From: Oceanispirochaeta sp.
Lineage (GTDB): Bacteria; Spirochaetota; Spirochaetia; DSM-2461
Assembly (NCBI GenBank): GCA_963663385.2
Contig: CAXXXD010000004.1
Location: 288,001 to 352,000, forward strand
Direction: 5' to 3'
Length of the DNA stretch: 64,000 bases
Of this stretch, positions 12,325-25,690 are shown one piece after another. Numbering within the stretch: the first letter of the stretch is position 1; the number at the start of each line of letters is the position of its first letter. The notes beneath the pieces were generated by a model. It saw nothing but the letters and a program-made list of their open reading frames with translations. It did no database searches and was not told the DNA's origin. A program made the position numbers and the translations under genes.

Positions 12325-12384
12325 GGCTGAGAAAAGATATGGAGGTTTCCTACCATTCTAACGGATCAATGATCTTTATATCTT

Positions 12385-12717
12385 CTACCTTTTTAAGATC
12401 TCTTTGTCTGCTGTAACCAGAGTCAGATCTTTTTCGATAGCGGTAGCCACGATAATTGCGTCGGGAATTTTCAGTCCATACTTTTTCCGGACGAAGATAG
12501 ACCGCTCAGTAATGTCTCCGTCTGTTTCAAACTCAATCAGGTCACTGACAAAACGTCGAATCATAAATTCCTGATCTTCATTATTCTTCCCGCAACTCAG
12601 CTCTATATGAGAAATAAAGGAGAGATATAATTCATCTTCAAAAGAAATCTTTTCAAAGAGAGGGAAAATGCCTTCAAGGCAGTATACAACAGCGTTGGTA
12701 TCCAACAGATATCTCAT
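12385..12717 (-). CDS. vapC: VapC-like PIN domain toxin (C-terminus probably frameshifted)
   Basis: YLLDTN, IEL, KIPDAIIVATA, LVTAD motifs. Confidence 0.85.
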   Translation of the reverse strand: MRYLLDTNAVVYCLEGIFPLFEKISFEDELYLSFISHIELSCGKNNEDQEFMIRRFVSDLIEFETDGDITERSIFVRKKYGLKIPDAIIVATAIEKDLTLVTADKEILKR

Positions 12718-12959
12718 CTGTTATCCCATTCTTTTCGTAATTTCCTCTGGTATTCGACTCCATCGACACCCCAACCTTTTAATGATCCCTGAAGCGCCTT
12801 AAGTCTTTTAAAGCGGGCTTTTCTGTCTTCAGTACCTTTCGGGCGAACGATGATTGTTACATCCTGAGGATCAAGAGGAAGATCTTTATCCTCGATCACC
12901 AGGTGATGATTCTGGTCGATACGTCCTGATAACTCATAATTTTCCATTTCCAATGACAT
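12714..12959 (-). CDS. Putative antitoxin of the PIN toxin
   Basis: 81-aa ORF overlapping the toxin start (ATGA). C-terminal DGVEYQRKLRKEW; AGGGG RBS. Confidence 0.7.
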   Translation of the reverse strand: MSLEMENYELSGRIDQNHHLVIEDKDLPLDPQDVTIIVRPKGTEDRKARFKRLKALQGSLKGWGVDGVEYQRKLRKEWDNR

Positions 12960-13109
12960 ACTTGTTCCCCTTGGGTCCTTTAACATTAATATATCACTTT
13001 TACACCTGTTCTTACAGGATGGCTTCAAACATGTTACATTATTATTTACAGTTCGCTGTAAGCGCAAGCCCACTCCTGCGGTCGTTAAGAGGGACATACG
13101 TTGTTTTTT

Positions 13110-13216
13110 TCAGAACCGGAGCCACGACGGCGGAGGGGCGGCCTGCGGTACCTGCCGGAAAGACTTCTTCAACGTGAAATGTTATTCCGGCGAAAAATGA
13201 AATTGGGAATCATAAC
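13110..13216. repeat. 107-bp direct repeat copy 1
   Basis: Colinear with 22237-22343; 12 mismatches in 107 by manual alignment. Confidence 0.93.
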
Positions 13217-13268
13217 AAGAATGTTGCTGCCGTTTCCCTTCGGTCACAGCAGAACAATGGTGTTATGA
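13210..13268. repeat. attC-like 59-bp hairpin 1
   Basis: TCATAAC-N6-GTT(G)CTGC...GCAGAAC-N6-GTTATGA, 4 bp past the immunity gene stop. Confidence 0.7.
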
Positions 13269-13272
13269 ATAA

Positions 13273-13593
13273 CTAAATCTCTTTGATAGTGGACTTGGAA
13301 GGACTGCTCCAAGATATTTTTTTATATTTACCTTTAATCTTTCCTTTTTCGCGATATTCCTCAAACTGCTCGGAAGGACTCCAGTCTTTACCAGCAGAAA
13401 AATACACATCCAAATCGTTTAACTTAATAAATTTTTCAATTTTATCTTCTGTATCAGAATATGGTATAGACCAATATTCTGGGTAATCACTATCTATACT
13501 TGCTTCTAATTCCAATAGTTTTGTTTCAAAAGATTTTGTGACATTTTTTATATATATCTTATCAGTTACAAAAACAACATATGGATTAATCAT
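13273..13593 (-). CDS. Putative immunity protein for Rhs-CT1
   Basis: 106-aa AT-rich ORF directly downstream of the Rhs tip, with a GGAGG RBS. Confidence 0.7.
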   Translation of the reverse strand: MINPYVVFVTDKIYIKNVTKSFETKLLELEASIDSDYPEYWSIPYSDTEDKIEKFIKLNDLDVYFSAGKDWSPSEQFEEYREKGKIKGKYKKISWSSPSKSTIKEI

Positions 13594-13607
13594 CGATTTA
13601 TTCCCTC

Positions 13608-14594
13608 CTATCTTGTTGGAATTGAATTAATAATCATTTCTGGTCCTCCACCGGGAAGTCCTTTTCCTCCACCTTGAAAGAACTCATTTCCACCAGCAAT
13701 AGGACTTCTTGGAGCCATCTCTTTTATACCAGAAACTTCAGTAATTCTAAATCCATTCCCTAAGGTCCCGGGATTAAGGCCTAATACTTTCTCCAATGCC
13801 ACACCTTGCTGTTTTGAATTAAAAGAACCAGGAGAGAAGTTCCCTATTGCACCTGTAAGCGCTTTTTTATCTGTTATATAAGTTCCAGAACGCCCAATGG
13901 AATCAAATTCTTTAAACCATGATTCAGGAGATACGTTATATCCGACGTTCATTTCTAACATATTTTGCTGTCTAGATGTAAAGAGATTTTTTAGTGAAGG
14001 GTTATTAAAAACACTATCTGCATTAAGGCCACCCACTCCCAGCATACATAGATCAAGAAAGGTTCCGACTGCTAGTGACTTAGCATCTCCTGGGGGTAAA
14101 TATTCTCCATTGGGTCCGTGATAACCAGAATCCCAACCATTTGTCATTCCATTAACAAGTGCACCAACGCCAAGCCCCATATCATAAAGTAGCTTTTCAA
14201 ACGGTCCAAGTGCTGGCATATAACCACTAGCTTGTGGCCCTGCCGGTGTTACTTCTCCTAAGTTCTCTGGAGCTAATGGATCATTGGGTTTATCATCACC
14301 ATCGTCGTCATCATCTTTCTCTATAGGTCGTTTAGAATCTGAATCATATTCACCAGATTCTTCACTAGATAATCCAAAGATCAACCCCGTCGGATCTACA
14401 TATTTAATAGGATTGTTCGAGGTGTAAACATACCAGTTTTGCCCGTCTCTAGCCGGATCTTCAGATATAAATCTCCCCGTATCCGCATCATACCACCTAG
14501 CATTGTAGTAATAATCACCCTCTCCCCCTAAATCGTTGCAAAAAGGAGACCTGCAAGGAGGCGTTGAAACTGGAATTTCTCTAGTAGCTGTCAT
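13608..14594 (-). CDS. Orphan Rhs core + C-terminal putative toxin (CT1)
   Basis: YYYNARWYDADTGRFISEDP...NNPIKYVDPTGL core followed by a variable tip. The first 27 aa are not Rhs-like and the start is uncertain. Confidence 0.85.
   Translation of the reverse strand: MTATREIPVSTPPCRSPFCNDLGGEGDYYYNARWYDADTGRFISEDPARDGQNWYVYTSNNPIKYVDPTGLIFGLSSEESGEYDSDSKRPIEKDDDDDGDDKPNDPLAPENLGEVTPAGPQASGYMPALGPFEKLLYDMGLGVGALVNGMTNGWDSGYHGPNGEYLPPGDAKSLAVGTFLDLCMLGVGGLNADSVFNNPSLKNLFTSRQQNMLEMNVGYNVSPESWFKEFDSIGRSGTYITDKKALTGAIGNFSPGSFNSKQQGVALEKVLGLNPGTLGNGFRITEVSGIKEMAPRSPIAGGNEFFQGGGKGLPGGGPEMIINSIPTR
14432..14513. repeat. 82-bp Rhs-core direct repeat copy 1
   Basis: 72/82 identical to 23589-23670 by manual alignment. 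Confidence 0.9.
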
Positions 14595-14611
14595 GGTACG
14601 TTAATAAACTA

Positions 14612-15631
14612 TCATTTACCTATCTTACGGGCAAGCGCTTTTCTATTCTTCTCTCTTTGCTTCAGACTGTCCCGAACCAGAGTTTCCAGTGAATCAAGAT
14701 AGGAGTCGGTCACCTCGGCGAAATGGAAATTCTCCCTGGGATGGTACTGCCTGTAGGAAGCCTTGATGTTCTCTTCGCTTTGCCGGGAGTAAACCACCGT
14801 GGTTTCCACCGATTCATGCCCCAAAAGCTCCTGAACATAGCGGATCTCCGCCCCGTGGGCCAGAAGATGGGAAGCACAGCCGTGCCGGAGGGAGTGGACG
14901 GTCAGCCCTTTCCGGTAGAGTCCGCACTTTTCACTCAGCAGTTTAAACCGTTTGTTGATCCCTCCGTGAGTAAACCGGTAGCCCCCGGAAAGGATCAGAG
15001 GCCTGTGGTGTGCTTTCACGCCTTCCAGATACTTATCCAGAAACCAGGCGGCCGCCTTGGTCACTGGGACCCGGCGGTCCTTGGAAAACTTGCTCTGGTG
15101 GATCCACAATAACCGGCTGGCCGGATCGTAATCTTTCACATCCAGATGGGCCGCTTCGGAAGACCGGAGACCGGAAGAGTAAATCAGTTCAAACAGGGCC
15201 CTGTCCCGGAGCCCCAGGGGCTGGTGAATATCGATGGAATCCAGAAAGAGTGCGGTCTCGTCCTCACTCAAAACTTCTTTGATCCGCTCCTGCCGTTTCC
15301 CGAAGCGGACTGTCTCCACCGGTGAGGACAAAACCAGGTTGTTTTCATACAAACAGAGATAGAACTTTTTCACGGAGGTGAAAATACTCATCCTCGTTGA
15401 GTCCTTGTAGCCCCGTCCTCTCTCTCCGGGATGCTCCTGCAGCCAGGAAAGGAAGGAGACAATATCACTCCTTTTCACATCCCGGATGTCTTTCGTGCCA
15501 GTTTCATCCAAAAAGGTAAAGAAGGGGGTAAGCTGAGCTTTCTTTGTCCGAATAGTTCCCTCTTTAAATCCCTGGGCCTTCAGGTATCCGGCGAAAAGGG
15601 AAAGGGCTTTCTGCCTTGAGAGTCTTTTCAT
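14612..15631 (-). CDS. Tyrosine recombinase (XerC/D-like) 2
   Basis: YSSGLRSSE, HSLRH, LLGHESVETTVVY catalytic residues. ATGA overlap with the upstream recombinase. Confidence 0.93.
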   Translation of the reverse strand: MKRLSRQKALSLFAGYLKAQGFKEGTIRTKKAQLTPFFTFLDETGTKDIRDVKRSDIVSFLSWLQEHPGERGRGYKDSTRMSIFTSVKKFYLCLYENNLVLSSPVETVRFGKRQERIKEVLSEDETALFLDSIDIHQPLGLRDRALFELIYSSGLRSSEAAHLDVKDYDPASRLLWIHQSKFSKDRRVPVTKAAAWFLDKYLEGVKAHHRPLILSGGYRFTHGGINKRFKLLSEKCGLYRKGLTVHSLRHGCASHLLAHGAEIRYVQELLGHESVETTVVYSRQSEENIKASYRQYHPRENFHFAEVTDSYLDSLETLVRDSLKQREKNRKALARKIGK

Positions 15632-16674
15632 CTCCTTTTTCCCAGCTGTCTGGGATGGTGGCGGTCCAGCTGCTCCTTTACCTCTTTCACATCCACTTTG
15701 GTGTAAATCTCGGTGTTCCCGATGGCCCGGTGCCCCAGGATCTGCTGAATCTGCCTCAAGGGGCAGCCTTGTTTCAGAAGATGGTAGCCCAGACAGTGCC
15801 GGAGGCTGTGGGCTGTCATAAAAGGAATTCCGACTTCTTCGCAAGCCTCTTTCAGATCCCTGTTGAAAGCCTTTCCCAGTTCATCCGAGGAAGAGCCGAA
15901 AAGCCTTTCCCTGTTGCTCTTGCCGGTCAGGATCTCATCCCGAACGGTTAGAAACCGCCTTAATACACTGGCGGCGTAGTCGTTCAGGTAGACCTTCCGG
16001 TCGAATCCTCCCTTGCCGGAGATAACGGTGATCTCTTTCCTTTCAAGATTCAGGTTCTCTTCCTGAAGGTCAGCCGCTTCGCTGATTCGGAGGCCCGAGG
16101 CGTAAAGCAGCTCGGCCAGCACATGGGTCAAATACCGCCTTTTCCGGGCTTTCAGTCCCTTCACGGCAGAGAAGTCCGCCAGACGGGAGAGAAGCCGGGC
16201 CAGTTCTTTCTCCATGGGTAAATCCCTGGGAATGATCCTTTCACCCCGGGGAGCTTTGACGGCGGTAAAGGGATCGGAAACAAGCTTTCCCGAATCCCTC
16301 ATCCACCGGCTGAAGGAGGAAGCGGCCTGACGGTAGGAAGCCAGGGTGTTTACCCTGTAGTCTTCTCCGCTTCCGGTTCCCCGTTCTGTAAGGTGTGCCA
16401 TGAAGCCTCTGGCCGCCCGGATGTCCGTCTGATCCGCCGTCAGTCCTTCTTCTTCCAGATAGGCCAGAAAATGGGGAATCCGGCTGTGGGCGTTCCGGAG
16501 AGCCTGGGAAGAAGCTCCCAGGGCTTTTTTCTCTTCCAGATAGCTGTCTAGCAGGGTTTGATGGGCTTTATGTATGTTTCCTGCGCTTCCGGACACTTCC
16601 CTTCGGGAAGTTCCTGCCGCTTTATGAGAAAAGGAACCCTGACGCTCTCGCGTCAGCCTTTTATCATTATTCAT
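15628..16674 (-). CDS. Tyrosine recombinase (XerC/D-like) 1
   Basis: LYASGLRISE, GKG, HSLRH, ILGHRAIGNTEIY. Confidence 0.93.
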   Translation of the reverse strand: MNNDKRLTRERQGSFSHKAAGTSRREVSGSAGNIHKAHQTLLDSYLEEKKALGASSQALRNAHSRIPHFLAYLEEEGLTADQTDIRAARGFMAHLTERGTGSGEDYRVNTLASYRQAASSFSRWMRDSGKLVSDPFTAVKAPRGERIIPRDLPMEKELARLLSRLADFSAVKGLKARKRRYLTHVLAELLYASGLRISEAADLQEENLNLERKEITVISGKGGFDRKVYLNDYAASVLRRFLTVRDEILTGKSNRERLFGSSSDELGKAFNRDLKEACEEVGIPFMTAHSLRHCLGYHLLKQGCPLRQIQQILGHRAIGNTEIYTKVDVKEVKEQLDRHHPRQLGKRR

Positions 16675-16800
16675 GCTCTGTCTCTCTCCGGGATTTTGTA
16701 CCCACTTTCTCCTAAACCTTTACCGGATTTAACTTTAAGCCGAATAGTCGGCCTGTACCCGGTTTTCCCACTTTCGGCTAATCCCTTACCAGAACAACAA

Positions 16801-19461
16801 TTATTGTTTTTCATCATTCCGTACCCGCTTTGTACCCGGTTCCCTGGTTAAATGGTCAGGTGAAGGAATCACCGAGTCATCGAAAAGAACTAGGTCAGAA
16901 TCAGCCGCCAGTCCGTAACGCCTGGTCATACCCCGGCCCGATCCTTTGCTCCGGATGTATTCATACTCTGTCAAAAGCCTCATATTCTTCTTGATCAGCT
17001 CATGGGAGAATCCGGAGACCTCCCGGATCTCCCGCTGGGTCACCCAGATATCGGTCAGGAATAGCCCGTCCTTCTCCGCTTTGCTTTTAAGAAGATCCCG
17101 GAGCTCCTCATACAAAATGACAGCCGAACGGGGTAAAGTGGTCATGGTGGAAGAAAGCAGGGTCTTCATGATCCGGTAAGCCACCTTGTAGTCTTCCAGG
17201 TCGCACTCTATGTAATGCTTCCCCTGATCATTCTTCTCCTGTTTCTGGTACTGCCTCAGGAAGCACACGCAGGCAATGAGGTCTACAAACCGTTCATGGT
17301 CCCGCCGGCTCCGCATCATGGAAGAGGGAAAGTCCAGCTCCCCGGCGAAAGGATTAACAATTACCCGGTTTTTCAGGAGCCTTTGGGCGGCCTGGTGGGT
17401 CTTAATGATTTCCGGGAGATCTTCTTCCTTCTTCCGGTAGGCTTCCAGGGTGTACTTCTCCCTCTGCCTCCGGTGGATCTCCCTGGTCTGCTCCCGGCTC
17501 TCGTCTGTGTTTACCACAAAGCAGCGGGAGGCGTTCTCCGGGTTGATCTCCGTCGAAGTGGAGGACATCACGGCGGAAACAATGACTTTTTTCCGTACCA
17601 GCTTGCTGGTCATTCTTCCGGTCTTCTCATCCTTGGTGGTCACCAATCGGGACAGCTCTTTTCCGGATAACATCTCCCGCATCTGATGATCTACGCTCTC
17701 CGAGTGGACCGCCTCTCCCATGACCAGAAACTTGTGCAGCAGAGCTTCATCGGGAAGGTAGTTCAAGGCCTGGTCGGAAAGGCTGGTCATGGAAATCACA
17801 TCCTCTTCGGGCATCAGCTTTTTTACCGTATCGATCAGAAAGCTTTTACCAGCGGCGGACTGGGAGATGACGATTACGCTTACCGGATCGGCCATCAGAC
17901 GGGAGGAGGCGGCCAGGTACATAAGGATCTTGTTTTCCTCCTCTCCCACGTAGCCCAGAGCTTCCGTATCCCTGACAATCCTGTCGAAAAGATTGGGATC
18001 CTGTAAAAGGGAGAGGCCAGCTGCCTCTTCCTCAGGGGTCAAAGACCCCTTCTTTAAACCGGTATCCGAAAGGGCCCGTTCAGACTCTTCTTCCAAATAG
18101 TCCAGGATATCCAGTAAATCCTTTTCAATCCTGGCGGATTCCTCGCCGAACCGGCGAGCGACCGCGACAGAGAAAAGGGTCCGGCTCCGGGCGGAGAAGA
18201 GGTCTACATTGTCGATGAACTTGACAGTATCATCCGCCGGCCTCTGACAGCGGACATTCACCTTCAGGGAACTGACAAATCCTTCTTTAACTCCGATGAT
18301 CCGGTAATCCAGAGAAGAACAATGAAACAGGTACTTACCATCGGCCACCAGTGGCCTTTTATCACCCTCCGGCGGTTTCAGAATGCTGCTCTCGATCAGG
18401 GATAGAACTTGTTCCTTTGTGATTTTTGGTAATGACTCATTCCAGTCCTTGGAAGGCGGGAAGATGGTTCTGACGGCAATACCCTTTTCGAAAAGAGTTT
18501 TTCCGACCTTTTCTGCAGCCTCCCGGCCCGCTTCATCACCGTCGAAAGCAAGGACAACTTCCTTTGTACGGTTTTCTTTCAAAGCTTCTACAAGGTGACT
18601 GGTCACCCCGTTGGCGCCGTAAGAGCAGGAAACATTTTCGCATCCCAAAACCATCAGCGAAAAGGCATCAATCACCGATTCTGTCAGGATCATCCGGTCC
18701 GGGTAAACCTTGAATGCCTGGTGGTTAAACAGGCCCCGGTGGGGCCCTTTCAAATAAAGGTGTTTCACCCTGGACCTTTCATTTATCTTCCTGCCGTAAA
18801 ATCTCCGGACTTTCCCATCGGAAGAATAGAGTGGGAAAACAATGCAGTCCCGGAAGGTTTCAAGGTTCTTTTCCGTAAAGAGGCCCGCCTCTTTCAGCTC
18901 CTGAAACTGGACTTCGGACAGTTTGTCTTTCAAGTCTCCGGGGCAGTAGCCGACTTTCAGCCGTCCCAGAAGCTCCGGAGCATAGATCCCCCGTTTTTTC
19001 AGGTAGGAAACTGCTTCCGGATGGGAGAGCTGACGGTGATAGTAATCCGTTACATCTTCCAATGAGGTTGTTTTAAGCAGAGGTTCGCCCTCCAGTGGCA
19101 CCGGCGGAGCCGGTACCTCCTTCGGCCTGAATGCCTTTCCCTCATCTCCTTTCAAGATAGCCAGAGCCTCTTTAAACTCCACGCCCTGGTGCCTCATCAC
19201 AAAGTCAAACACATCCCCGCCGGCCCCGCAGCCGAAACAGTGAAACAGTCCCTTGGACTGGTCCACCGAAAGAGAAGGATTCTTGTCCTCATGGAAGGGG
19301 CACAGCCCCATGAAAGAAGAGCCTTTCTTCTCGAGAGAGATACCATAGGAGGTAATCACACTGACTATATCGGTTTGTGCCTTGATCCGGTCTTTTTCAA
19401 ACTCGTCCAGCAGGGAAGCCCCCTTCAAAGGGCTCCTGCCTTTCAGCTTTGAAGAAGTCAT
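16801..19461 (-). CDS. DnaG-like primase (CHC2 zinc finger + Toprim) fused to a C-terminal P-loop ATPase/helicase-like domain
   Basis: CPFHEDKNPS...CFGC, TESVIDA, FDGDEAG, SQSAAGKS. ATGA overlap with parA. Confidence 0.9.
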   Translation of the reverse strand: MTSSKLKGRSPLKGASLLDEFEKDRIKAQTDIVSVITSYGISLEKKGSSFMGLCPFHEDKNPSLSVDQSKGLFHCFGCGAGGDVFDFVMRHQGVEFKEALAILKGDEGKAFRPKEVPAPPVPLEGEPLLKTTSLEDVTDYYHRQLSHPEAVSYLKKRGIYAPELLGRLKVGYCPGDLKDKLSEVQFQELKEAGLFTEKNLETFRDCIVFPLYSSDGKVRRFYGRKINERSRVKHLYLKGPHRGLFNHQAFKVYPDRMILTESVIDAFSLMVLGCENVSCSYGANGVTSHLVEALKENRTKEVVLAFDGDEAGREAAEKVGKTLFEKGIAVRTIFPPSKDWNESLPKITKEQVLSLIESSILKPPEGDKRPLVADGKYLFHCSSLDYRIIGVKEGFVSSLKVNVRCQRPADDTVKFIDNVDLFSARSRTLFSVAVARRFGEESARIEKDLLDILDYLEEESERALSDTGLKKGSLTPEEEAAGLSLLQDPNLFDRIVRDTEALGYVGEEENKILMYLAASSRLMADPVSVIVISQSAAGKSFLIDTVKKLMPEEDVISMTSLSDQALNYLPDEALLHKFLVMGEAVHSESVDHQMREMLSGKELSRLVTTKDEKTGRMTSKLVRKKVIVSAVMSSTSTEINPENASRCFVVNTDESREQTREIHRRQREKYTLEAYRKKEEDLPEIIKTHQAAQRLLKNRVIVNPFAGELDFPSSMMRSRRDHERFVDLIACVCFLRQYQKQEKNDQGKHYIECDLEDYKVAYRIMKTLLSSTMTTLPRSAVILYEELRDLLKSKAEKDGLFLTDIWVTQREIREVSGFSHELIKKNMRLLTEYEYIRSKGSGRGMTRRYGLAADSDLVLFDDSVIPSPDHLTREPGTKRVRNDEKQ

Positions 19462-20264
19462 AGACCGCACCGGGATAAAAGTTCATTCCCCAGAGCCCTT
19501 ACTTCCTCCGCGGGCCTTTTCCATTGGTTACCGGACAGCTGGACCAGGCCCTTCCTCTCGGCAATGGCTTCCTCGATCCGGATCGACCGGCTGATCACGG
19601 TCTCAAAACAGGTTTCTCCGAAGAACCCGGTCAGTTCGGCTTTCAGCTCCCGGCCGATCAGGGTAACCGGGTTGTAGCTGTTAAGGACGACTCCCAGGGC
19701 GTAAAGAGTCGGGTTCAGGCTCCGCCTGATCTTCTCCATGGTTTCCAGAAGGTCCGAAGCTCCCTGCAGGGCGTACTGACTGGCTGTAATGGGCATCACA
19801 AGGTGATCGGCGGCTACAAGGGCATTGCCCGTGAGGATTCCCAGGGAAGGGGGAGTATCCATCAGGATAAAATCGTAGGATTCGAACTCCTCCCGTTCGA
19901 AAAGCTCCTTAAACCGTACATAGCCGTCGAACTCTCCCACAAGCTGTTTTTCCAGCAGGCTGAGATAGATCGATCCGGAAAGGATCTCAAGATTCTCACT
20001 GACACTTTGAACGTGAATTTCATCTTCTGTAATGGCCTCGTACAGTCCTTTTCCCGGCTGGTCGAAGAAACTTCTGGAAAGGTTGCCTTGGCTGTCACAG
20101 TCTACCAGAAGGGTTTTCAGCCCTTTATCATGGGCCAGGTAACAGCCCAGTTCTCTTGTCATGGTGGTCTTGCCGACCCCGCCTTTCTGGTTGGTAAATA
20201 CGATCTTTTGGCGACTAAGAATGGGGCCCTGATGCTTTGCATCACCCATTTTATCTAGATTCAC
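19458..20264 (-). CDS. parA: ParA family ATPase
   Basis: NQKGGVGKTT, VDCDSQGN, DTPPSLG. Confidence 0.92.
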   Translation of the reverse strand: MNLDKMGDAKHQGPILSRQKIVFTNQKGGVGKTTMTRELGCYLAHDKGLKTLLVDCDSQGNLSRSFFDQPGKGLYEAITEDEIHVQSVSENLEILSGSIYLSLLEKQLVGEFDGYVRFKELFEREEFESYDFILMDTPPSLGILTGNALVAADHLVMPITASQYALQGASDLLETMEKIRRSLNPTLYALGVVLNSYNPVTLIGRELKAELTGFFGETCFETVISRSIRIEEAIAERKGLVQLSGNQWKRPAEEVRALGNELLSRCGL

Positions 20265-20517
20265 ACTGGGCCTCCTCTTCCTTCTTCCAGAGGAGGTTCC
20301 GGATCACTTCCAGAGTCTCGGGGATCTTCTTCAAAGGAGTCCGGCAGGTACCCAGAAAAAGTTTACGGTCTCCGGTAATGTTCTCTCCTTCCAGAGTGAA
20401 AACCATCTCCTGGGCTCCCAGGGTTCCCATGCTCAGGTAAACATCGACCAGCCGGTGGTGCTGATCCAAAAGGTAGGCGACTTCGGCCAGGTTGGCTGTT
20501 ATGAGGCTGTCTTTCAC
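20251..20517 (-). CDS. Small hypothetical protein, paralogue of the upstream ORF
   Basis: GTG start overlaps the upstream stop (GTGA); motif TANLAEVAYLL. Confidence 0.65.
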   Translation of the reverse strand: MKDSLITANLAEVAYLLDQHHRLVDVYLSMGTLGAQEMVFTLEGENITGDRKLFLGTCRTPLKKIPETLEVIRNLLWKKEEEAQCESR

Positions 20518-20798
20518 TGGTGGCCCCCTTTCATGCTTTTCCGGTAGTCCCGCTTGGCATTGTTGGCGTAGTTGTTGATCTCTCCGTAACAACGGCGGAA
20601 GAGAACCAGATTGACAACCGCTTCACTTCTCAAAAAGTCGCTTTGAAGATGAGGAATGACTTCTCCTTCGAAGTAGAAGTCGCAGATGATATCTTTGGTG
20701 ACGTTCCCGGCCAGAAGGCGGCAGGTAACCAGGTGGGGCGTTACCCCTTTAGTCAGGTAGTAGGCGGCCTCGTACAGGTCGCTGGTGCGGATTTCCAT
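20514..20798 (-). CDS. Small hypothetical protein, first gene of the element's replication operon
   Basis: 94 aa, GGAG RBS, motif TSDLYEAAYYL. Confidence 0.7.
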   Translation of the reverse strand: MEIRTSDLYEAAYYLTKGVTPHLVTCRLLAGNVTKDIICDFYFEGEVIPHLQSDFLRSEAVVNLVLFRRCYGEINNYANNAKRDYRKSMKGGHQ

Positions 20799-21041
20799 TC
20801 TTTACTCCATCGGAAGGAGCAGAACGGCATTTGCGGGGATAAGAATTTATGGTAGAATTGTAAGTGCATGGAGTTCTACTCCTATGTTGTTTTTAAGCCT
20901 GTTTCCCGAAGGTCGCCAAACACTCGGAAACGGGCTTTTTTATTGCCAACGGCAATATTTCAAAAGTGTGTCAAGTAGCATTTGACTGTTTAATAATGAC
21001 ACATCATGTATCACTCGTCAAGTTATATGATAAGATAAATC

Positions 21042-21437
21042 ATGCCTCAAGTACCGAAGAAAGAATTACCCCCTTTAAAAATCAGTGACAAAAGCATTGG
21101 TGAAATCATTGCCAAAATAAGAAAACAGAGAGGACTTACACAGCTTGAATTGGCTGAAACAATTGGCATTACAAGAACCGCATTATCTGCCTATGAAAGC
21201 GGAAGAGTCCGACTTTATGATGAAATGATAGCAAGATTCGCCATTGCTCTGAATGTCTCGACTGACACTCTTTTCGGGCTGAAGGATGAAAATATTCTTG
21301 CACAGGATACAAATCTGAAACTTACAAAACGCCTGAAAGAACTGGAAGAACTCCCACCGGCAGACCAAAAAAAAATCCTTGAGCATATCAAGGATTTGAG
21401 AGCCATGAATGAATTAAAGGAAAATCAATCCAAATAG
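21042..21437 (+). CDS. XRE-family HTH transcriptional regulator
   Basis: IRKQRGLTQLELAETIGITRTALSAYESG; divergent from the replication operon. Confidence 0.92.
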   Translation: MPQVPKKELPPLKISDKSIGEIIAKIRKQRGLTQLELAETIGITRTALSAYESGRVRLYDEMIARFAIALNVSTDTLFGLKDENILAQDTNLKLTKRLKELEELPPADQKKILEHIKDLRAMNELKENQSK

Positions 21438-21489
21438 ATATTCTTTCGATATCCGGCTATTACAAAGAGAATGAGAAACCTAACCCTGC

Positions 21490-21783
21490 TTACTGCTTAC
21501 TGCATTCCATATTCATCTCTTTTCGAAGTAAATCATTCAGCAAAGTCTGATACCCTTTACCATGACTTTTTAGCCAAAGAAGAATGTCCGCATCGATTCG
21601 GGTGGTTATCTGCTCTTTCCTGGGCTTGTAAATATCGTGAAAAGGGACGGCCCTGGAAAAATCCTCATCAGACCACTCTTTTATGTCACTGGTATCTATT
21701 TCGGAGTCGGGTAATTCGGCAAGCTTGGCGAGTCTTGCCTTTGTGTCTTCATCCATAGGACTAAAACCATTTTCCTGCTTCAT
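21490..21783 (-). CDS. brnA: BrnA-like antitoxin
   Basis: IDTSDI, KEQITTRIDADILLWLK, GYQTLLN. Confidence 0.88.
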   Translation of the reverse strand: MKQENGFSPMDEDTKARLAKLAELPDSEIDTSDIKEWSDEDFSRAVPFHDIYKPRKEQITTRIDADILLWLKSHGKGYQTLLNDLLRKEMNMECSKQ

Positions 21784-22048
21784 ACTTCCTCCTCTCTGCC
21801 GTTGTTGCTTTTCGGGCAGATATTATTCTGAAAACGTCTTCATCCTGCTGATCTCTCATGGTGTAAACCACAAGCACCAGCAGAATGCCGCCGATATGCC
21901 CCATAATTTGCTGACGGGGCTCTGAATCCGTGTAATCCTCACGAACCAGGGCAAACGGGTCGGCAAAAACATACTTGGCGTCTTTGAATGACAATCCGTG
22001 TTTCTTCTGGTTGATTATGTCTTTTTCTTTATCCCATTCAAAGGTCAT
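21761..22048 (-). CDS. brnT: BrnT-like toxin
   Basis: FEWDKEK...NQKKHGLSF...RIISARKAT. Confidence 0.9.
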   Translation of the reverse strand: MTFEWDKEKDIINQKKHGLSFKDAKYVFADPFALVREDYTDSEPRQQIMGHIGGILLVLVVYTMRDQQDEDVFRIISARKATTAERRKYEAGKWF

Positions 22049-22236
22049 AATATAATTATACTATTGTAACTACATTTTTGCAATTATGATAAAAAGAGAA
22101 AACACTCCGCCAGCTCCTGTATAAAATTATTCTGGAATCTATAAACTTACCACTAAAAGCAGGTGAACAGAGAATTCGTTATATGGCGAAGCGGACAGCT
22201 GCCAGGGACGGCAGCTGCAGATAACGGATTTTCTGA

Positions 22237-22343
22237 TCAGAACCGGAGCCACGACGGCGGAGGTTCGGCCTGCGGTTACTGCCGGAAAAGCTTTTTCAAC
22301 GTGAAATGTCATTCCGGCGAAAAATAAAATTAGGGGTCATAAC
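22237..22343. repeat. 107-bp direct repeat copy 2
   Basis: Colinear with 13110-13216. Confidence 0.93.
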
Positions 22344-22394
22344 AACAGTGCTGCACCAGACAGGCAAGCCTGCAGGTGAGCATGGACGTTATGA
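22337..22394. repeat. attC-like 58-bp hairpin 2
   Basis: TCATAAC-N6-GCT(G)CACC...GGTGAGC-N6-GTTATGA, 2 bp past the immunity gene stop. Confidence 0.7.
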
Positions 22395-22396
22395 AT

Positions 22397-22858
22397 TTAC
22401 GGAATGTGAGAAAAAGCATCTTTAAAGGTTTTATTCTTATAATCCCAATTAAATGTCTTAGTATCTCCTACAGAATTTCCAGAGGCAAAATAAGGAGTTA
22501 AAACTATACCCGGAGAATATTCTTTATTATTTGGGTAAGACAATTTCATCTTAAATCCATAAAAGATTAACTCATGATTCTTAAATGATATCAAGATTTT
22601 CCCTGTTGCATCTTCAAGTATATCATCATGAAAATAAATTACATGATCCCGATTAATATCAGACTTCAGAACACCTATGAAGCTTTCACATATGTCTGAA
22701 TCAGAATAATAATCAGTGTAAATCTGAACAATGTCATCATCTATTATTAATTCGAAGTCAGCAGACTTTTTATTTAATAATATTATATCATCAGAAAATA
22801 TTACTGATGAAAATAAAAGGATTTGTACTGTTATTAGAAAAATATTCCTCAATCCCAT
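22397..22858 (-). CDS. Putative periplasmic immunity protein for Rhs-CT2
   Basis: Overlaps the toxin 3' end; N-terminal signal-peptide-like segment; AT-rich. Start could be 22873. Confidence 0.7.
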   Translation of the reverse strand: MGLRNIFLITVQILLFSSVIFSDDIILLNKKSADFELIIDDDIVQIYTDYYSDSDICESFIGVLKSDINRDHVIYFHDDILEDATGKILISFKNHELIFYGFKMKLSYPNNKEYSPGIVLTPYFASGNSVGDTKTFNWDYKNKTFKDAFSHIP

Positions 22859-23712
22859 AAAATATAACCCCAATTGTAGTTTTTATTTATCTTTTTCTTT
22901 GCATATTGATCTAAGAAGCCATTTTCAACCATATTAATTTTACCAGCATTTGATGATGGATGAACTTCTCCTGCTTCTGTAACTGTCGTAACATGATCGT
23001 AAACACCATCACCATCCCAATCATAAAAGTTTTGAGAACCCACTCCACCATTTCCCGGTTTCAGTAGGTTAGGATCATTGGCCATTTCATCAGCAGTTCG
23101 ATCACCAATACCAACACCACTTACTGTTTCAGCTGAAATCATAGATGTCGAAGAACAGTCTAATCCTTGTCCTTCAGGTGATGGAGTTTCTCCACCAGAA
23201 TGATAATTACCACCTACAAACGATTTCGCTGTTTCGGCCAAACCATTGTTAAGGATTTCATCAACCGTTTCAGATATTTCATCATATGCAGCTTCAGTTA
23301 TATTATCCATTATCTCATCTTCAACTGCTTGAATCTGTTCATTAAGCCGATCTATATTTCGGTCATTATCCATACCGGAATTAATCAGATCATCTTTTTT
23401 ATCTTTAAGATCATTTCTTCGATCTTCTCTGCCTTGTGCATCTCTTCTATCTTTTCTATCGCTTTTCTTTTTTTCATATTCCGTATTTCTCTGCTCTCGA
23501 TCTCTTTCATCATCAGCACTATCGCCATCAACACGGCGCATTCCTGTAGGATCGACAAATTTTAGAGGGTTGTTTGATACATAATTGAACCAGTTTTGGC
23601 CGTCTCTAGCCGGGTCTTCCGATATAAACCTTCCGGTCCCCGCATCATACCACCGTGCATTGTAGTAATAGAGTCCGGTATCTTCATCCAGATCCTTTCC
23701 GGTATATTTCAT
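22849..23712 (-). CDS. Orphan Rhs core + NlpC/P60-like C-terminal toxin (CT2)
   Basis: KYTGKDLDEDTGLYYYNARWYD...NNPLKFVDPTGM core; the tip has GLDCS...DHV...H. Confidence 0.85.
   Translation of the reverse strand: MKYTGKDLDEDTGLYYYNARWYDAGTGRFISEDPARDGQNWFNYVSNNPLKFVDPTGMRRVDGDSADDERDREQRNTEYEKKKSDRKDRRDAQGREDRRNDLKDKKDDLINSGMDNDRNIDRLNEQIQAVEDEIMDNITEAAYDEISETVDEILNNGLAETAKSFVGGNYHSGGETPSPEGQGLDCSSTSMISAETVSGVGIGDRTADEMANDPNLLKPGNGGVGSQNFYDWDGDGVYDHVTTVTEAGEVHPSSNAGKINMVENGFLDQYAKKKINKNYNWGYILWD
23589..23670. repeat. 82-bp Rhs-core direct repeat copy 2
   Basis: 72/82 identical to 14432-14513. Confidence 0.9.
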
Positions 23713-25049
23713 TACTTCTCTTGGGATTTACGCTCGGTTTCCTCTTTTCTCTGTTCAGCCATCTCACTGATCCTGCGGGCAAATTCGGGGAAGCGACCCA
23801 GAATCTGGTCGAAGGTTTCCTTGTCGATGGAGTAGCAGTCGCAGTACTCCCTGGCCTTGATGGTGGCGTTACGGGGGGCGCTGAAGAGAAGGGCAATCTC
23901 CCCGAAGAACGAGCCGGCGCCCAGGGTGGCATAGACAATTTTTTCGTCTTCCGAAACAACATCAACCGATCCCCGGCTGATAAAGTACATCTCGTAGCCT
24001 ATCTCACCCTTGATCACCACATAGTCTCCAGGCGTAAAGACAACCGGCTGCAGGTTCAGGATAATGTCTTTAATAAACTCTTCCGACGTCCCCTGAAAGA
24101 GGGGTACCTTCTGAATAATATCCCGGTTCAGAAAGAGGGAAACCGAAGTCTGAAGCGGTTTGGGCAGGTCCGTCAGGATGGATGATTCGTCATAGCCCCG
24201 GCGGCTCTCCCACAGGTAGTCGTAGTAGTCGTTTATCTTGTCCTTCAGGTCCGAGGGAATATGCTTGTACTTCATGAAGGTGGTGATTTTTTCCATCTTT
24301 TCCTGATACTGGGACTTGGCGATATCTATATTGGCAATGATATTGGCAATATTACCAATAATAAAACCGTACATACCGGCACCGATCAGCTCGACGATTA
24401 TAATAAATATTATCTGTGCATTGTTGGTCTGGTCCGGAGTGATATCACCGTATCCAATGGTCGTAAGCGTTGTAACCGTCCAGTAGAAGGATACAATATA
24501 GCGGTTCAGCCGGGTATTGTCTCCCAGGCCTCCGGTAATATAAATCCAGCCGCAGGAAATCAGATGAGCTGCGATGAGAATCCAGAAAATCAACAGAGCC
24601 ATCCGGATAAAACTCGGATTCATCTTTTTGTTGTTGCGGATCCGGCTGATCATCCTTCCTATACGGAAGAGCTTCACCAGCCTCAGCAGATTGGCGTAAA
24701 GCGCAATCTCCAGTATAAGGGGATGGTTGAACAGGGTCAGGACCATATACAGGGGGAGAGCCGCCACTATATCCAGGGGCAGGTCCCGTTTTCTGTATAG
24801 CTTGAAAATAATCTCTTTATTGTCGAAATACTCCCGCTGGTCGTAAAAGCCCGTATGGGATTCCAGATAGATATCGAGGATGAAGATCATGGAGATCAGG
24901 AAATCGAAAAGGAGAAGGCGTCCCCTCATGGGGATACGGAATACCGTAGTCAGGGGGACGATTATGGTAATAGTTATGGTCAATAACAGGATGAACGTAT
25001 CCCAGGCAATCTTTTTTCTGCTGTTTGGATTGATAATTTGAAATTCCAT
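23712..25049 (-). CDS. Cyclic nucleotide-gated K+ channel (SthK-like)
   Basis: TM segments, selectivity filter TTIGYGD, C-linker, cNMP domain FFGEIALL...PRNATI. Confidence 0.92.
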   Translation of the reverse strand: MEFQIINPNSRKKIAWDTFILLLTITITIIVPLTTVFRIPMRGRLLLFDFLISMIFILDIYLESHTGFYDQREYFDNKEIIFKLYRKRDLPLDIVAALPLYMVLTLFNHPLILEIALYANLLRLVKLFRIGRMISRIRNNKKMNPSFIRMALLIFWILIAAHLISCGWIYITGGLGDNTRLNRYIVSFYWTVTTLTTIGYGDITPDQTNNAQIIFIIIVELIGAGMYGFIIGNIANIIANIDIAKSQYQEKMEKITTFMKYKHIPSDLKDKINDYYDYLWESRRGYDESSILTDLPKPLQTSVSLFLNRDIIQKVPLFQGTSEEFIKDIILNLQPVVFTPGDYVVIKGEIGYEMYFISRGSVDVVSEDEKIVYATLGAGSFFGEIALLFSAPRNATIKAREYCDCYSIDKETFDQILGRFPEFARRISEMAEQRKEETERKSQEK

Positions 25050-25174
25050 ATTAATTTATTATCGGAGAAGAGCCTTTTTATCTCCATTCTTTTTCATCAG
25101 AGCTTTATGGGAAATTCATAGTATGCTGTAATACAGTAAGGTTTATATTCATTTAAGCGGCAGGGAGAGGAAAA

Positions 25175-25690
25175 ATGGTGGAAAGAAGTACCGGGGAAGA
25201 GATCTTCGACCGGGTAGACAGGGACGACCGGGTTATCGGAAAAGTGTTAAGGAGCGAGGCCCATGGCAATCCGGATCTGATACACCGGGTGGCTCATGTG
25301 CTTGTATTTGATTCATCGGGGGAGCTCTTTCTGCAGAAGCGGGGAAAGCATAAGGATGTGCAGCCTGGTAAGTGGGATACCTCCGTAGGGGGGCATGTGG
25401 ACGCAGGGGAATCCTATGATGCCGCAGCTCTGCGGGAGATGCGGGAAGAGCTGGGAATCGATGGCGCTGCCGTGGAATTTCTGTATAAATACCTTCATCG
25501 GAATGAGTATGAGTCGGAATACGTCTGTACCTACCGCTGCATCTGGGACGGCCCGATAGAGATTCATCCGGATGAGATTGACGAAGGACGCTTCTGGACC
25601 CTGAAGAGTATCCGCAGCAGCAGCCCCGATCACTTCACACCCAATTTTCTGGATGAACTGGAACGGTTCAGTCAATTCTCCCAGTTCTAG
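25175..25690 (+). CDS. NUDIX hydrolase (IDI-like/YfcD-like)
   Basis: GGHVDAGESYDAAALREMREELG Nudix box. Confidence 0.88.
   Translation: MVERSTGEEIFDRVDRDDRVIGKVLRSEAHGNPDLIHRVAHVLVFDSSGELFLQKRGKHKDVQPGKWDTSVGGHVDAGESYDAAALREMREELGIDGAAVEFLYKYLHRNEYESEYVCTYRCIWDGPIEIHPDEIDEGRFWTLKSIRSSSPDHFTPNFLDELERFSQFSQF

What the first reader, a model, noticed from the sequence alone, without database searches (positions are those of the whole stretch)
13273..23712. Candidate Rhs toxin tip-swapping mobile element (tandem tyrosine recombinases + primase-helicase + ParA)
Seen: the core XRE / orf-orf-parA-primase-recombinase-recombinase is translationally coupled and both recombinases have intact catalytic residues. 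It lies between two same-orientation Rhs-core repeats, each leading into a different toxin-immunity pair. Recombination between the cores would excise ~9.2 kb carrying CT2-Imm2 and fuse MKYTGKDLDEDTGL in frame to CT1. Integration is the reverse: it installs a new tip on a resident Rhs and parks the old tip behind the second recombinase, keeping its immunity gene. No capsid, relaxase or T4SS gene is visible. Known: Rhs tips are exchanged at the conserved core, and orphan tip-immunity pairs exist. Inference: a replicating, satellite-like vehicle that actively diversifies polymorphic toxins. I cannot confirm novelty without a literature or database search.
Basis: partly seen in the sequence, partly recalled or inferred. 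Interest (0 to 1): 0.92.

Follow-up and report, generated by a model that had tools for sequence, protein, structure and literature searches.

The report
Mobile element that swaps Rhs toxins
A 9-kb mobile DNA element in a spirochaete sits exactly at the conserved end-piece of Rhs toxin genes, carrying its own toxin and antidote and pushing the old pair downstream, which offers a concrete vehicle for how these bacterial weapons change warheads.

Summary
Window 14514-23667 is a 9.15-kb unit made of the 3' part of an Rhs core, toxin CT2, Imm2, a conserved non-coding block, BrnTA, XRE, two small ORFs, ParA, a primase-helicase and two Xer-like tyrosine recombinases. The same unit lies at a second, unrelated locus of this genome. 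There the backbone is 100% identical over 7,847 nt and CT2 residues 15-287 are identical. A third backbone copy carries a different toxin cassette. Both independent insertions cross over inside one 12-14-nt stretch (TACTACAATGC) at the 5' edge of the core, and a 40-nt identical tract further in was not used. This favours site-specific integration over homologous recombination. Related backbones in 9 genomes, including Chloroflexia and Christensenellaceae MAGs, have an Rhs core end just downstream of the second recombinase in 19 of 22 assessable copies. Caveats: this genome has no RHS-repeat gene, so here the element sits in orphan tips. No circle or empty site was seen. Replication and the roles of the recombinases are inferred. 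I found no paper describing such an element.

The parts
23712..25049 (-). Flank: cyclic-nucleotide-gated K+ channel gene. Its stop overlaps the ATG of CT2.
   Evidence: Pfam Ion_trans and cNMP_binding. In 4 of 6 same-genus genomes fetched it lies 20-200 nt from ftsK.
23668..23712 (-). Resident 5' stub of the recipient orphan tip: start codon plus KYTGKDLDEDTGL. It is not part of the mobile unit.
   Evidence: It differs from the second insertion site in contig C3, where the stub encodes ..EIDAATGL.
23657..23667 (-). Left crossover region (attL), TACTACAATGC.
   Evidence: Identity between the window copy and the C3 copy starts here.
23543..23670 (-). Core repeat D1b: the 3' part of the Rhs core (YYYNARWYD...DPTGM) carried by the element.
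   Evidence: It is 127 of 128 identical to the C3 copy.
22849..23712 (-). CT2: an Rhs-core tip fused to a toxin domain of unknown family.
   Evidence: TIGR03696 at residues 2-58. No Pfam family for the toxin part. Residues 15-287 are 100% identical in C3.
22397..22873 (-). Imm2, the presumed immunity gene. It overlaps the end of CT2 by 25 nt.
   Evidence: Position. 100% identical in C3. No family.
22237..22354 (.). D2b: conserved non-coding block between cassette and backbone.
   Evidence: 87% identical to D2a. Copies follow every cassette in the genome.
22196..22217 (.). Perfect inverted repeat CAGCTGCC-N6-GGCAGCTG at the start of the backbone. It is a candidate protein-binding or resolution site.
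   Evidence: Unique in the window. Conserved in G017 with two compensating arm changes.
21490..22048 (-). BrnT/BrnA toxin-antitoxin pair, a likely addiction module.
   Evidence: Pfam PF04365 and PF14384. A promoter-like site lies at 22083-22055.
21042..21437 (+). XRE-type HTH regulator, divergent from the replication/integration operon.
   Evidence: Pfam HTH_3. PHROG repressor families.
20251..20798 (-). orf94 and orf113: small conserved backbone proteins of unknown function.
   Evidence: Conserved in synteny in relatives. There are only weak phage-like leads.
19458..20264 (-). ParA-type ATPase.
   Evidence: Pfam AAA_31, CbiA and ParA. NCBIfam ParA families score below their cut-offs.
16801..19470 (-). 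DnaG-type primase (Zn ribbon plus Toprim) fused to a C-terminal P-loop domain.
   Evidence: Pfam, TIGR01391, PHROG primase families.
15628..16674 (-). Int1, a Xer-like tyrosine recombinase.
   Evidence: PF00589 1e-30. XerD/XerC models at 154 bits, below their cut-offs.
14612..15631 (-). Int2, a Xer-like tyrosine recombinase. Its ATG at 15631 overlaps the Int1 stop (ATGA).
   Evidence: PF00589 1e-34.
14514..14594 (-). Right end of the element. It supplies a start codon and a 27-codon leader to the displaced tip and is the presumed attP left arm.
   Evidence: Identical in all three backbone copies and conserved in the genus.
14500..14510 (-). Right crossover region (attR), TACTACAATGC.
   Evidence: Backbone identity among copies ends here.
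13608..14594 (-). CT1: the displaced resident tip (core repeat D1a at 14386-14513 plus a toxin of unknown family).
   Evidence: TIGR03696 at residues 26-71. Single copy in the genome.
13273..13593 (-). Imm1, the presumed immunity gene of CT1.
   Evidence: Position. Single copy.
13110..13227 (.). D2a: a non-coding block after the resident cassette, read as the remnant of an older element.
12385..13097 (-). PIN (VapC-like) gene and the ORF upstream of it, forming the end of the 11.4-kb island next to ftsK.
   Evidence: Pfam PIN. The region is absent between ftsK and the channel gene in 4 of 6 relatives.

Best explanation
This is an integrative element of about 9.15 kb, probably able to replicate itself. 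Its attachment site is the DNA that encodes the last ~45 residues of the Rhs core. In circular form (inferred) the end beyond Int2 is joined to the element's own copy of the core 3' part, which is followed by CT2 and Imm2. The two Xer-like recombinases (inferred) exchange strands within TACTACAATGC, at the 5' edge of that core block, with the same stretch in any gene that carries an Rhs core. Integration therefore fuses the recipient's upstream part in frame to the element's core, toxin and immunity. The recipient's old core, toxin and immunity end up behind Int2, where the element end gives them a new start codon and a 27-codon leader. This follows the logic of islands that insert into the 3' end of a tRNA or protein gene and bring a replacement 3' end, except that here the replacement encodes a different toxin. 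XRE would be the switch. ParA and the primase-helicase would maintain the circle. BrnTA, and perhaps the toxin-immunity pair itself, would act as addiction modules. In relatives the recipient is a full-length Rhs, so the weapon is re-armed and the old immunity is kept. In this genome, which has no Rhs shell gene, the element lands in orphan tips that look like remnants of earlier insertions. Shown: the unit, its copies, its boundaries and its conserved linkage to Rhs cores. Inferred: the circle, the enzymes responsible, replication, and transfer between cells.
For: (1) The unit recurs. Window 14514-23667 is found again in contig C3 with different flanks on both sides. Backbone plus D2 is 100% identical over 7,847 nt. 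CT2 residues 15-287 and Imm2 are 100% identical. (2) There is a third backbone copy. The ends of contigs C3 and C2 overlap with 0 mismatches in 5,057 nt, so they are one copy. It follows a different cassette (CT5) and precedes another (CT7). Contig depth of the backbone is about 3x that of the flanks. (3) The crossover is mapped. All three backbone ends are identical up to TATTACTACAATGC and then run into three different tips. The two left junctions become identical from TACTACAATGC onward, and position 3 of the core (T or C) comes from the resident side. In C3 a 40-nt identical tract lay further inside the cores and was not used. In the window the longest shared run is 15 nt. (4) The linkage is conserved. 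In 19 of 22 assessable copies from 12 genomes an Rhs core-end motif lies on the same strand within 1.5 kb downstream of the distal recombinase gene, and in 16 of them within 360 nt. The motif has only 26 hits in 383,696 nt across six frames. Positive loci include Chloroflexia and Christensenellaceae MAGs. (5) The prediction holds in relatives. The first core of an array is the C-terminus of an Rhs open frame of 3443 aa (G019), 3390 aa (G017:C4) and 1683 aa (G017:C1, which has RHS repeats and an M23 peptidase tip). In G017:C4 the junctions Rhs>X, backbone>X and backbone>Y share a sharp boundary at the codons for FTGKEW. (6) The region is an island. ftsK and the channel gene are adjacent in 4 of 6 same-genus genomes. 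(7) Both recombinases are tyrosine recombinases with Xer-like profiles.
Against: No circular junction or restored empty site was seen. Only assembled contigs of public runs could be laid, and they break at the repeats. Depth shows no excess over three chromosomal copies. This genome has no RHS-repeat match, so tip swapping on a delivery-competent Rhs cannot occur here. The third copy shares a 99.9% identical backbone but has a different cassette, and identity changes abruptly at the D2/backbone boundary. Simple integration at the core does not explain this. The orphan landing pads sit in non-Rhs intergenic sites and begin with a start codon plus KYTGKDL, and their origin is unexplained. The two most distant backbones, L043 and L047 (primase ~35% identical), show no core within 963 and 3,674 nt. 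No excisionase was recognised. In G017:C4 the shared tract is at least 27 nt, so homologous recombination is not excluded there. All of the evidence is comparative.
Confidence: 0.7

Rival explanations
1. The element integrates at the non-coding D2 block instead of at the core. The mobile unit would then be the backbone plus the tip that follows Int2. That tip would be the element's own gene, with its own start codon and leader, and the upstream cassette would be resident.
For: D2 follows every cassette and adjoins the backbone. A perfect inverted repeat with a 6-nt spacer lies just inside the backbone and is conserved in G017. The tip after Int2 starts inside the backbone.
Against: This model needs three near-identical backbones with three unrelated cargo tips that switch exactly at the core edge. 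It also needs the same resident CT2 cassette, 100% identical, at two unrelated loci whose upstream stubs differ. The terminal D2 copies end at different points, and none ends in the spacer of the inverted repeat.
Confidence: 0.08
2. RecA-dependent homologous recombination between Rhs cores moves the unit. The recombinases would serve only the circle, for example in multimer resolution, or some other site.
For: Orphan-to-main Rhs recombination by host machinery is the accepted model (Jackson 2009, PMC2935791, passages read). The cores are 73-84% identical over 128 nt. Tandem arrays can arise by unequal exchange.
Against: Two independent insertions both cross over in the first 14 nt of the core. 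In C3 a 40-nt identical tract was ignored, and in the window no run exceeds 15 nt. From recalled knowledge, efficient RecA exchange needs about 20-30 identical bases. The distal recombinase gene adjoins the core in 19 of 22 copies across phyla, and different lineages use three different, sharply defined entry points in the core.
Confidence: 0.12
3. The backbone is an integron-like platform. It stays put or moves rarely, and toxin-immunity cassettes bounded by the core edge and D2 are captured and released as separate small circles next to Int2.
For: Cassettes have conserved sequence at both ends. One backbone type carries different cassettes. A loose end in run X7 joins a CT2-type core to the end of another backbone type. 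Polyimmunity loci next to XerC/D-like recombinases are known (Zhang 2012, passage read; rAID).
Against: Cassette and backbone move together as one 9.15-kb unit that is 100% identical at two loci. Arrays alternate cassette and backbone instead of stacking many cassettes behind one integrase. The integron-integrase models score far below their cut-offs. D2 shows no covarying hairpin of the attC kind.
Confidence: 0.07
4. The unit is not a mobile element now. The copies are segmental duplications of a decayed island that happens to carry Rhs orphan tips.
For: No mobility was observed directly.
Against: All backbone proteins are intact and 100% identical in three copies. The boundaries are precise at a shared 11-mer. 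The same architecture recurs in 12 genomes of several phyla.
Confidence: 0.03

Closest known systems
Rhs C-terminal displacement model (Jackson et al. 2009, PMC2935791; passages read)
   Same: [quoted passage not shown]
   Different: [quoted passage not shown] Here the tip travels on an element with its own two recombinases, a primase-helicase and ParA, and the crossover is confined to 12-14 nt.
Genomic islands and prophages that insert into the 3' end of a tRNA or protein gene and carry a replacement 3' end, for example SGI1 at trmE (PMC8409611, abstract in the listing); the general principle is recalled
   Same: Both have a tyrosine recombinase next to the att site. In both, the identity block runs from the crossover to the end of the target gene, so the gene stays open after insertion.
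   Different: The replacement end is deliberately not equivalent: it encodes a different toxin and immunity. The target is also a multi-copy, horizontally mobile motif, not a housekeeping gene.
Tycheposons of Prochlorococcus (bioRxiv 10.1101/2020.12.28.424599; passages read)
   Same: Both combine a site-specific tyrosine recombinase, a small primase/helicase replication module and cargo. Both show tandem junctions and islands built from successive insertions.
   Different: Tycheposons target tRNA genes and have one integrase. Here there are two tandem Xer-like recombinases and the target is the Rhs core. Relatedness of the proteins was not tested.
Recombinase-associated orphan immunity arrays: rAID of Bacteroidales (PMC12247911, passages read) and polyimmunity loci next to XerC/D (Zhang et al. 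2012, PMC3482391, passage read)
   Same: Both link a tyrosine recombinase to toxin-immunity material, have conserved intergenic motifs between cassettes, and accumulate immunity genes.
   Different: Those are arrays of immunity genes behind one recombinase, with no replication genes. Here complete toxin tips move together with a replicon-like backbone, and the recombination site lies inside the toxin gene.
Rhs-associated integrase-like genes in bee-gut Snodgrassella and Gilliamella (Steele et al. 2017, PMC5727410; passage read)
   Same: Integrase genes are repeatedly found next to Rhs loci, with the suggestion that they capture Rhs sequences.
   Different: That work defined no element, att site or mechanism. 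Homology to Int1/Int2 was not tested here.
Orphan Rhs toxin-immunity pairs acting as type II toxin-antitoxin modules (Starsta et al. 2020, PMC7043789; passages read)
   Same: Short tip genes without a shell can be expressed and be toxic inside the producer. This would let a tip-immunity pair stabilise the element even in a genome without Rhs.
   Different: That was shown in Salmonella. Expression of CT1 or CT2 was not tested here.

Membership tests
Rhs C-terminal core (TIGR03696 Rhs_assc_core) | Match to the core-domain profile, ending at the DPxG cleavage motif just before the toxin | tested here: met
   CT2 scores 71.6 bits and CT1 54.5 bits against a cut-off of 32.5. They align to the last ~58 residues of solved Rhs/TcC shells.
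Full-length Rhs toxin | RHS/YD repeats (PF05593) forming the shell upstream of the core | tested here: not met
   There are 0 PF05593 matches in the whole genome G000, and CT1 and CT2 are 328 and 287 aa. The feature is met in relatives G019 and G017, and G003 has a 3418-aa Rhs with the same core type.
Tyrosine recombinase (PF00589) | Catalytic domain with the R, HxxR, H/W and Y residues | tested here: met
   Int2 1.3e-34 and Int1 1e-30. The residues were read from the translations; the motif pattern is recalled.
XerC/XerD chromosome dimer resolvases | Score above the equivalog cut-offs; action at dif | tested here: not met
   Best scores are 188.5 and 153.9 bits against cut-offs of about 330. 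The proteins are Xer-like but not XerC or XerD.
Integron | IntI-type integrase, attI, and attC hairpins bounding promoterless cassettes | tested here: not met
   TIGR02249 scores 102 and 90 bits against a cut-off of 265. The D2 alignment shows no covarying pairs (0 of 35). Cassette and backbone move together.
Integrative element with gene-3'-end replacement | Integrase gene adjacent to att, and an identity block from the crossover to the end of the target gene at both junctions | tested here: met
   Int2 ends 101 nt from the core edge, and the core-end motif lies 180 nt downstream of Int2.
Integrative element with gene-3'-end replacement | Excision to a circle and re-integration catalysed by the element's integrase | not testable with these tools
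   Only contigs of public runs were available, and no joint was seen.
Conjugative or mobilisable element (ICE/IME) | Relaxase, oriT or type IV secretion genes | tested here: not met
   There were no such Pfam or NCBIfam hits among the element's ORFs.
Phage satellite (PICI/P4-like) | Integrase, a primase-type replication gene, and genes that hijack a helper's capsid or packaging | tested here: inconclusive
   Integrases and a primase are present. No packaging or capsid family was hit. orf94 and orf113 have only weak phage-like leads.
Tycheposon | Integration at tRNA genes by the lineage-specific integrase | tested here: not met
   There is no tRNA gene in the window, and the target is the Rhs core. 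Integrase kinship was not tested.

The most novel reading that the evidence does not exclude
A family of small replicon-like integrative elements, found in several phyla, has Xer-like recombinase pairs that read the conserved Rhs core DNA as their attachment site. Each integration gives an Rhs weapon a new toxin while keeping the old immunity. This would supply the integrase-bearing circle that the C-terminal displacement model lacked. Different lineages have shifted their entry point along the core (FTGKE, YYxNARWYD or DGxNWY), much as phage integrases use different parts of tRNA genes. A bolder extension is that the core edge and the D2/inverted-repeat site are two separate recombination sites, perhaps one per recombinase, which would let the backbone exchange cassettes with resident orphans.
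Probability: 0.55. Interest if true: 0.9.

Novelty: new variant of a known kind. Interest (0 to 1): 0.8.

Why it matters
Rhs and related polymorphic toxins are among the most rapidly diversifying bacterial weapons. How new tips arrive and are installed at the core has been explained only by homologous recombination with orphans of unknown origin. A dedicated element that carries a tip-immunity pair and integrates site-specifically into the core gives that process a vehicle, an enzyme and a testable DNA site. It also explains three things: orphan arrays that alternate with mobile genes, the retention of old immunity genes, and the spread of tips across phyla. Finally, it offers a natural recombinase/att pair that makes in-frame C-terminal protein fusions.

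Tried and rejected
- **Rfam:** a scan of 12000-25500 gave only a weak tfoR match (24.5 bits against a gathering score of 70) inside the primase gene, taken as chance.
- **tRNA or tmRNA target:** none in the window.
- **D2 as a structured RNA:** single-sequence folds were stable (z -3.2 and -2.8), but the alignment of 6 copies showed 0 of 35 pairs with compensating changes. It is not called an RNA.
- **Promoter/terminator scan:** not enriched over shuffles; nothing in D2.
- **Public runs:** 8 runs were listed and 4 were laid (X3, X5, X7, X8). All were contigs that break at the repeats. There was no circle or deletion joint across 14514-23670, which says nothing either way about excision.
- **Toxin and immunity families:** Pfam at E up to 5 and NCBIfam found nothing for the toxin parts or for Imm1 and Imm2.
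- **orf94 and orf113:** the protein atlas gave only leads below or at 0.90.
- **Empty site with a resident tip in same-genus genomes:** none. 4 of 6 have ftsK and the channel gene adjacent, and 2 of 6 hold other insertions.
- **Recombinase binding arms around the junction:** no convincing symmetry was seen by eye.
- **Earlier notes of this scan:** none concerned this element.
- **Not used:** structure prediction and complex prediction.

Full report
**What is there.** On the minus strand, between a cyclic-nucleotide-gated K+ channel gene (23712-25049) and ftsK (9454-12324, plus strand), lies an 11.4-kb island. In gene order it holds:
- CT2 (22849-23712) and Imm2 (22397-22873);
- a non-coding block, D2b (22237-22354);
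- BrnT/BrnA (21490-22048);
- a divergent XRE regulator (21042-21437);
- orf94 and orf113 (20251-20798), then ParA (19458-20264);
- a DnaG-type primase fused to a P-loop domain (16801-19470);
- two tyrosine recombinases, Int1 (15628-16674) and Int2 (14612-15631);
- CT1 (13608-14594) and Imm1 (13273-13593);
- a second copy of the non-coding block, D2a (13110-13227);
- a PIN gene with its upstream ORF (12385-13097).

In 4 of 6 same-genus genomes fetched, ftsK and the channel gene are neighbours, 20-200 nt apart. The other 2 hold unrelated insertions.

The two same-orientation repeats are real: 14386-14513 and 23543-23670, 128 nt, 102 of 128 identical, 9157 nt apart. They encode the end of the Rhs core. 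CT2 residues 2-58 and CT1 residues 26-71 match TIGR03696 above its cut-off and align to the last ~58 residues of solved Rhs and TcC shells. Of the 20 codons that differ between the two repeats, 14 are synonymous, so the peptide is or recently was under selection. Both repeats are in frame, so the predicted deletion product is an open fusion. Int1 and Int2 overlap in ATGA behind an AAGGAG. ParA overlaps the primase gene and orf113 overlaps ParA. The element's ORFs hit no capsid, relaxase or secretion family.

**The unit is multicopy, and this defines its ends.** A BLAST of the region against the window's own genome (4 contigs, 5.3 Mb) found the stretch 14386-23688 again in contig C3. It also found backbone copies at the ends of contigs C3 and C2.
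- The window copy and C3 copy 2 are 100% identical over the 7,847 nt of D2 plus backbone.
- CT2 residues 15-287 and Imm2 are also 100% identical.
- The sequences on both sides of the two copies differ.
- The two contig-end copies overlap with 0 mismatches in 5,057 nt, so they are one copy. The genome therefore has three copies.
- Contig depth in public runs agrees: about 3x the flanks for the backbone and 2-2.7x for the CT2 cassette.
- The C3-C2 locus reads: flank | CT2 cassette | backbone | CT5 cassette | backbone | CT7 cassette | flank.
- Two further loci (C4 near 1.139 Mb and C1 near 0.282 Mb) hold a cassette with a D2 remnant and no backbone.

**Where the crossover is.** Seven core junctions were aligned.
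- The three backbone ends are identical up to TATTACTACAATGC and then continue into three different tips (CT1, CT5, CT7).
- The two CT2 left junctions have different upstream stubs, KYTGKDLDEDTGL next to the channel gene and ..EIDAATGL after an ABC-permease gene. They become identical from TACTACAATGC onward.
- Position 3 of the core (T or C) follows the resident side and position 15/16 follows the element side. Both independent events therefore cross over within the same 12-14 nt.
- In C3 the partner cores share a 40-nt identical tract further in, and it was not used. In the window no shared run exceeds 15 nt.
- The 11-mer occurs 8 times in the genome, 7 of them at core junctions, and twice in the window, only at the junctions.

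This pattern is what site-specific integration at the 5' edge of a replacement block predicts. It is not what RecA exchange along a 128-nt, 80%-identical repeat predicts. The length requirement of RecA is recalled knowledge.

**Which side carries the cargo.** Two readings are possible.
- Unit = cassette plus backbone, integrating at the core. The data then need two copies of one element (CT2) and one cassette difference.
- Unit = backbone plus the tip after Int2, integrating at D2. The data then need three different cargos on near-identical backbones, switching exactly at the core edge, and the same resident CT2 cassette at two unrelated loci.

The terminal D2 copies end at different points. 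The C1 locus keeps a fragment of the XRE end. The CT7 cassette keeps D2 plus about 60 nt of backbone. The resident cassettes therefore look like remnants of older elements whose backbones were deleted.

**Relatives.** Searching 40 related genomes with the primase found full-length matches in G003 and G007 (same genus, 85-88% identical), G019, G017 and G015 (other genera of the family, 51-61%), plus a partial match in G038 (another family of the same class, 47% over query residues 5-520 at a contig end, not followed up). Several lie in tandem arrays about 9-10 kb apart. All five genomes examined keep the order XRE / orf94 / orf113 / ParA / primase / Int1 / Int2 followed by an Rhs core. A scan of one genome per species found the same backbone in further Spirochaetota MAGs, a Chloroflexia MAG (three tandem copies), a Christensenellaceae MAG and a Syntrophomonadaceae MAG. 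It also found more distant primase-Int-Int loci, about 35% identical, in a Chlamydiae MAG and an unclassified MAG.

I counted distal-recombinase ends that have sequence downstream. In 19 of 22 copies, from 12 genomes, a core-end motif lies on the same strand within 1.5 kb, and in 16 within 360 nt. L050 has a partial core at its contig end. L043 and L047, the two most distant, have none. L039 and L041 had no room downstream and were left out. One overlap duplicate and one degraded copy in the Chloroflexia array were also left out. The motif has 26 hits in 383,696 nt over six frames.

**The prediction on full-length Rhs.** G000 and G007 have no RHS-repeat match. G019, G017, G003 and G015 do. In G019 the first core of the array is the C-terminus of an Rhs open frame of 3443 aa. 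In G017:C4 the frame is 3390 aa. In G017:C1 it is 1683 aa, with RHS repeats and an M23 peptidase tip. In each case the element follows, and a displaced core-tip sits after the second recombinase. In G017:C4 the three junctions (Rhs>X, backbone>X, backbone>Y) share one sharp boundary at the codons for FTGKEW. This is the pattern expected of two tandem X-carrying elements inserted into an Rhs whose old tip was Y. Lineages differ in where the homology block begins: FTGKE (G017:C4), YYxNARWYD (G000, G003, G007, one G019 copy), or DGxNWY (G015, G017:C1, one G019 copy, and the Chloroflexia and Christensenellaceae MAGs). G003 also has a 3418-aa Rhs with the same core type as CT2 (83% over 59 residues) at a contig start, so its downstream side is unknown.

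**What remains unexplained.**
1. The third backbone copy differs from the other two by 8 mismatches, most of them in D2, yet it follows a different cassette. Identity jumps from about 88% to above 99.9% at the D2/backbone boundary. Possible causes are gene conversion between tandem backbones, exchange at a second site, or cassette capture.
2. Just inside the backbone lies a perfect inverted repeat, CAGCTGCC-N6-GGCAGCTG (22196-22217). G017 keeps it with two compensating arm changes and the same spacer length. It has the layout of a simple recombinase or dimeric-protein site, but its function is untested.
3. The orphan landing pads in this Rhs-less genome begin with a start codon and KYTGKDL, the same place where the G017:C4 lineage enters the core. 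They may be relics of such elements inserted at secondary sites. This is speculation.
4. One loose end in run X7 joins a CT2-type core to an end resembling the second G019 backbone (..EGLPDFEGS). This hints that tips pass between backbone types. It rests on one 29-nt contig end only.

**Literature.** Nine full-text searches were run. None found a description of an element that integrates into the Rhs core.
- Jackson et al. 2009 (passages) proposed C-terminal displacement through an episomal circle. [quoted passage not shown]
- Steele et al. 2017 (passage) saw integrase-like genes near Rhs loci in bee symbionts without defining a mechanism.
- Zhang et al. 2012 (passage) and the rAID work (passages) link XerC/D-like recombinases to immunity arrays.
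- Tycheposons (passages) are the nearest backbone logic: an integrase, a primase/helicase, cargo and tandem junctions, but at tRNA genes.
- Starsta et al. 2020 (passages) showed that orphan Rhs tips can act as toxin-antitoxin modules. That would give the cassette a role even where no Rhs shell exists.

Subscription-only papers and supplements were not seen.

**Verdict.** The finding is real and its central interpretation is largely right. It needs three corrections: this genome offers only orphan tips as targets, mobility is inferred from copies and junctions and was not observed, and replication and satellite behaviour are untested. Mechanistically it is a variant of gene-3'-end-targeting integrative elements. 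Its use of a polymorphic-toxin core as the attachment site, which makes it swap toxins, appears to be undescribed.

Noticed in passing
window 22196-22217; L025 about 1204-1280: A perfect 8-bp inverted repeat with a 6-nt spacer lies at the start of the backbone. G017 (primase 54% identical) keeps it with two compensating arm changes. It may be a binding or resolution site.
   Followed up: partly
window 13110-13227 and 22237-22354; 5 further copies in G000: A conserved non-coding block of about 118 nt (D2) follows every toxin-immunity cassette. It folds stably but shows no covariation. Its function is unknown.
   Followed up: partly
window 12385-13097: A PIN (VapC-like) gene and its upstream ORF lie directly after D2a, in the position that BrnTA occupies in the intact element. 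This suggests the remnant of an older element with a different addiction module.
   Followed up: no
run X7, loose end at window 23670; runs X5 and X7 at 14513: Contigs of another isolate join CT2-type and CT1-type cores to upstream sequences that are absent from G000. One of them resembles the end of the second G019 backbone type.
   Followed up: partly
L026 965-6013 (G017:C1): A full-length Rhs of 1683 aa has as its current tip an M23 peptidase domain (residues 1571-1668). It lies directly upstream of an element copy.
   Followed up: partly
L042, L038, L050, L047 downstream of the second recombinase: In several relatives a small toxin-antitoxin pair (PIN, RelE/ParE-like or HigBA-like, judged by eye) lies between the second recombinase and the displaced core.
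   Followed up: no
G000 contig ends C3:1644540-1649648 and C2:1865103-1873023: The two contig ends overlap by about 5 kb with 0 mismatches, so the assembly breaks inside the repeated element. C3 and C2 are probably adjacent.
   Followed up: yes
window 17996-18093: A weak Rfam tfoR match (24.5 bits against a gathering score of 70) lies inside the primase gene. It is most likely chance.
   Followed up: no
L051 532-10785 (G003:C10): A 3418-aa Rhs with the same core type as CT2 ends 531 nt from a contig start. The assembly may break at an element there.
   Followed up: partly
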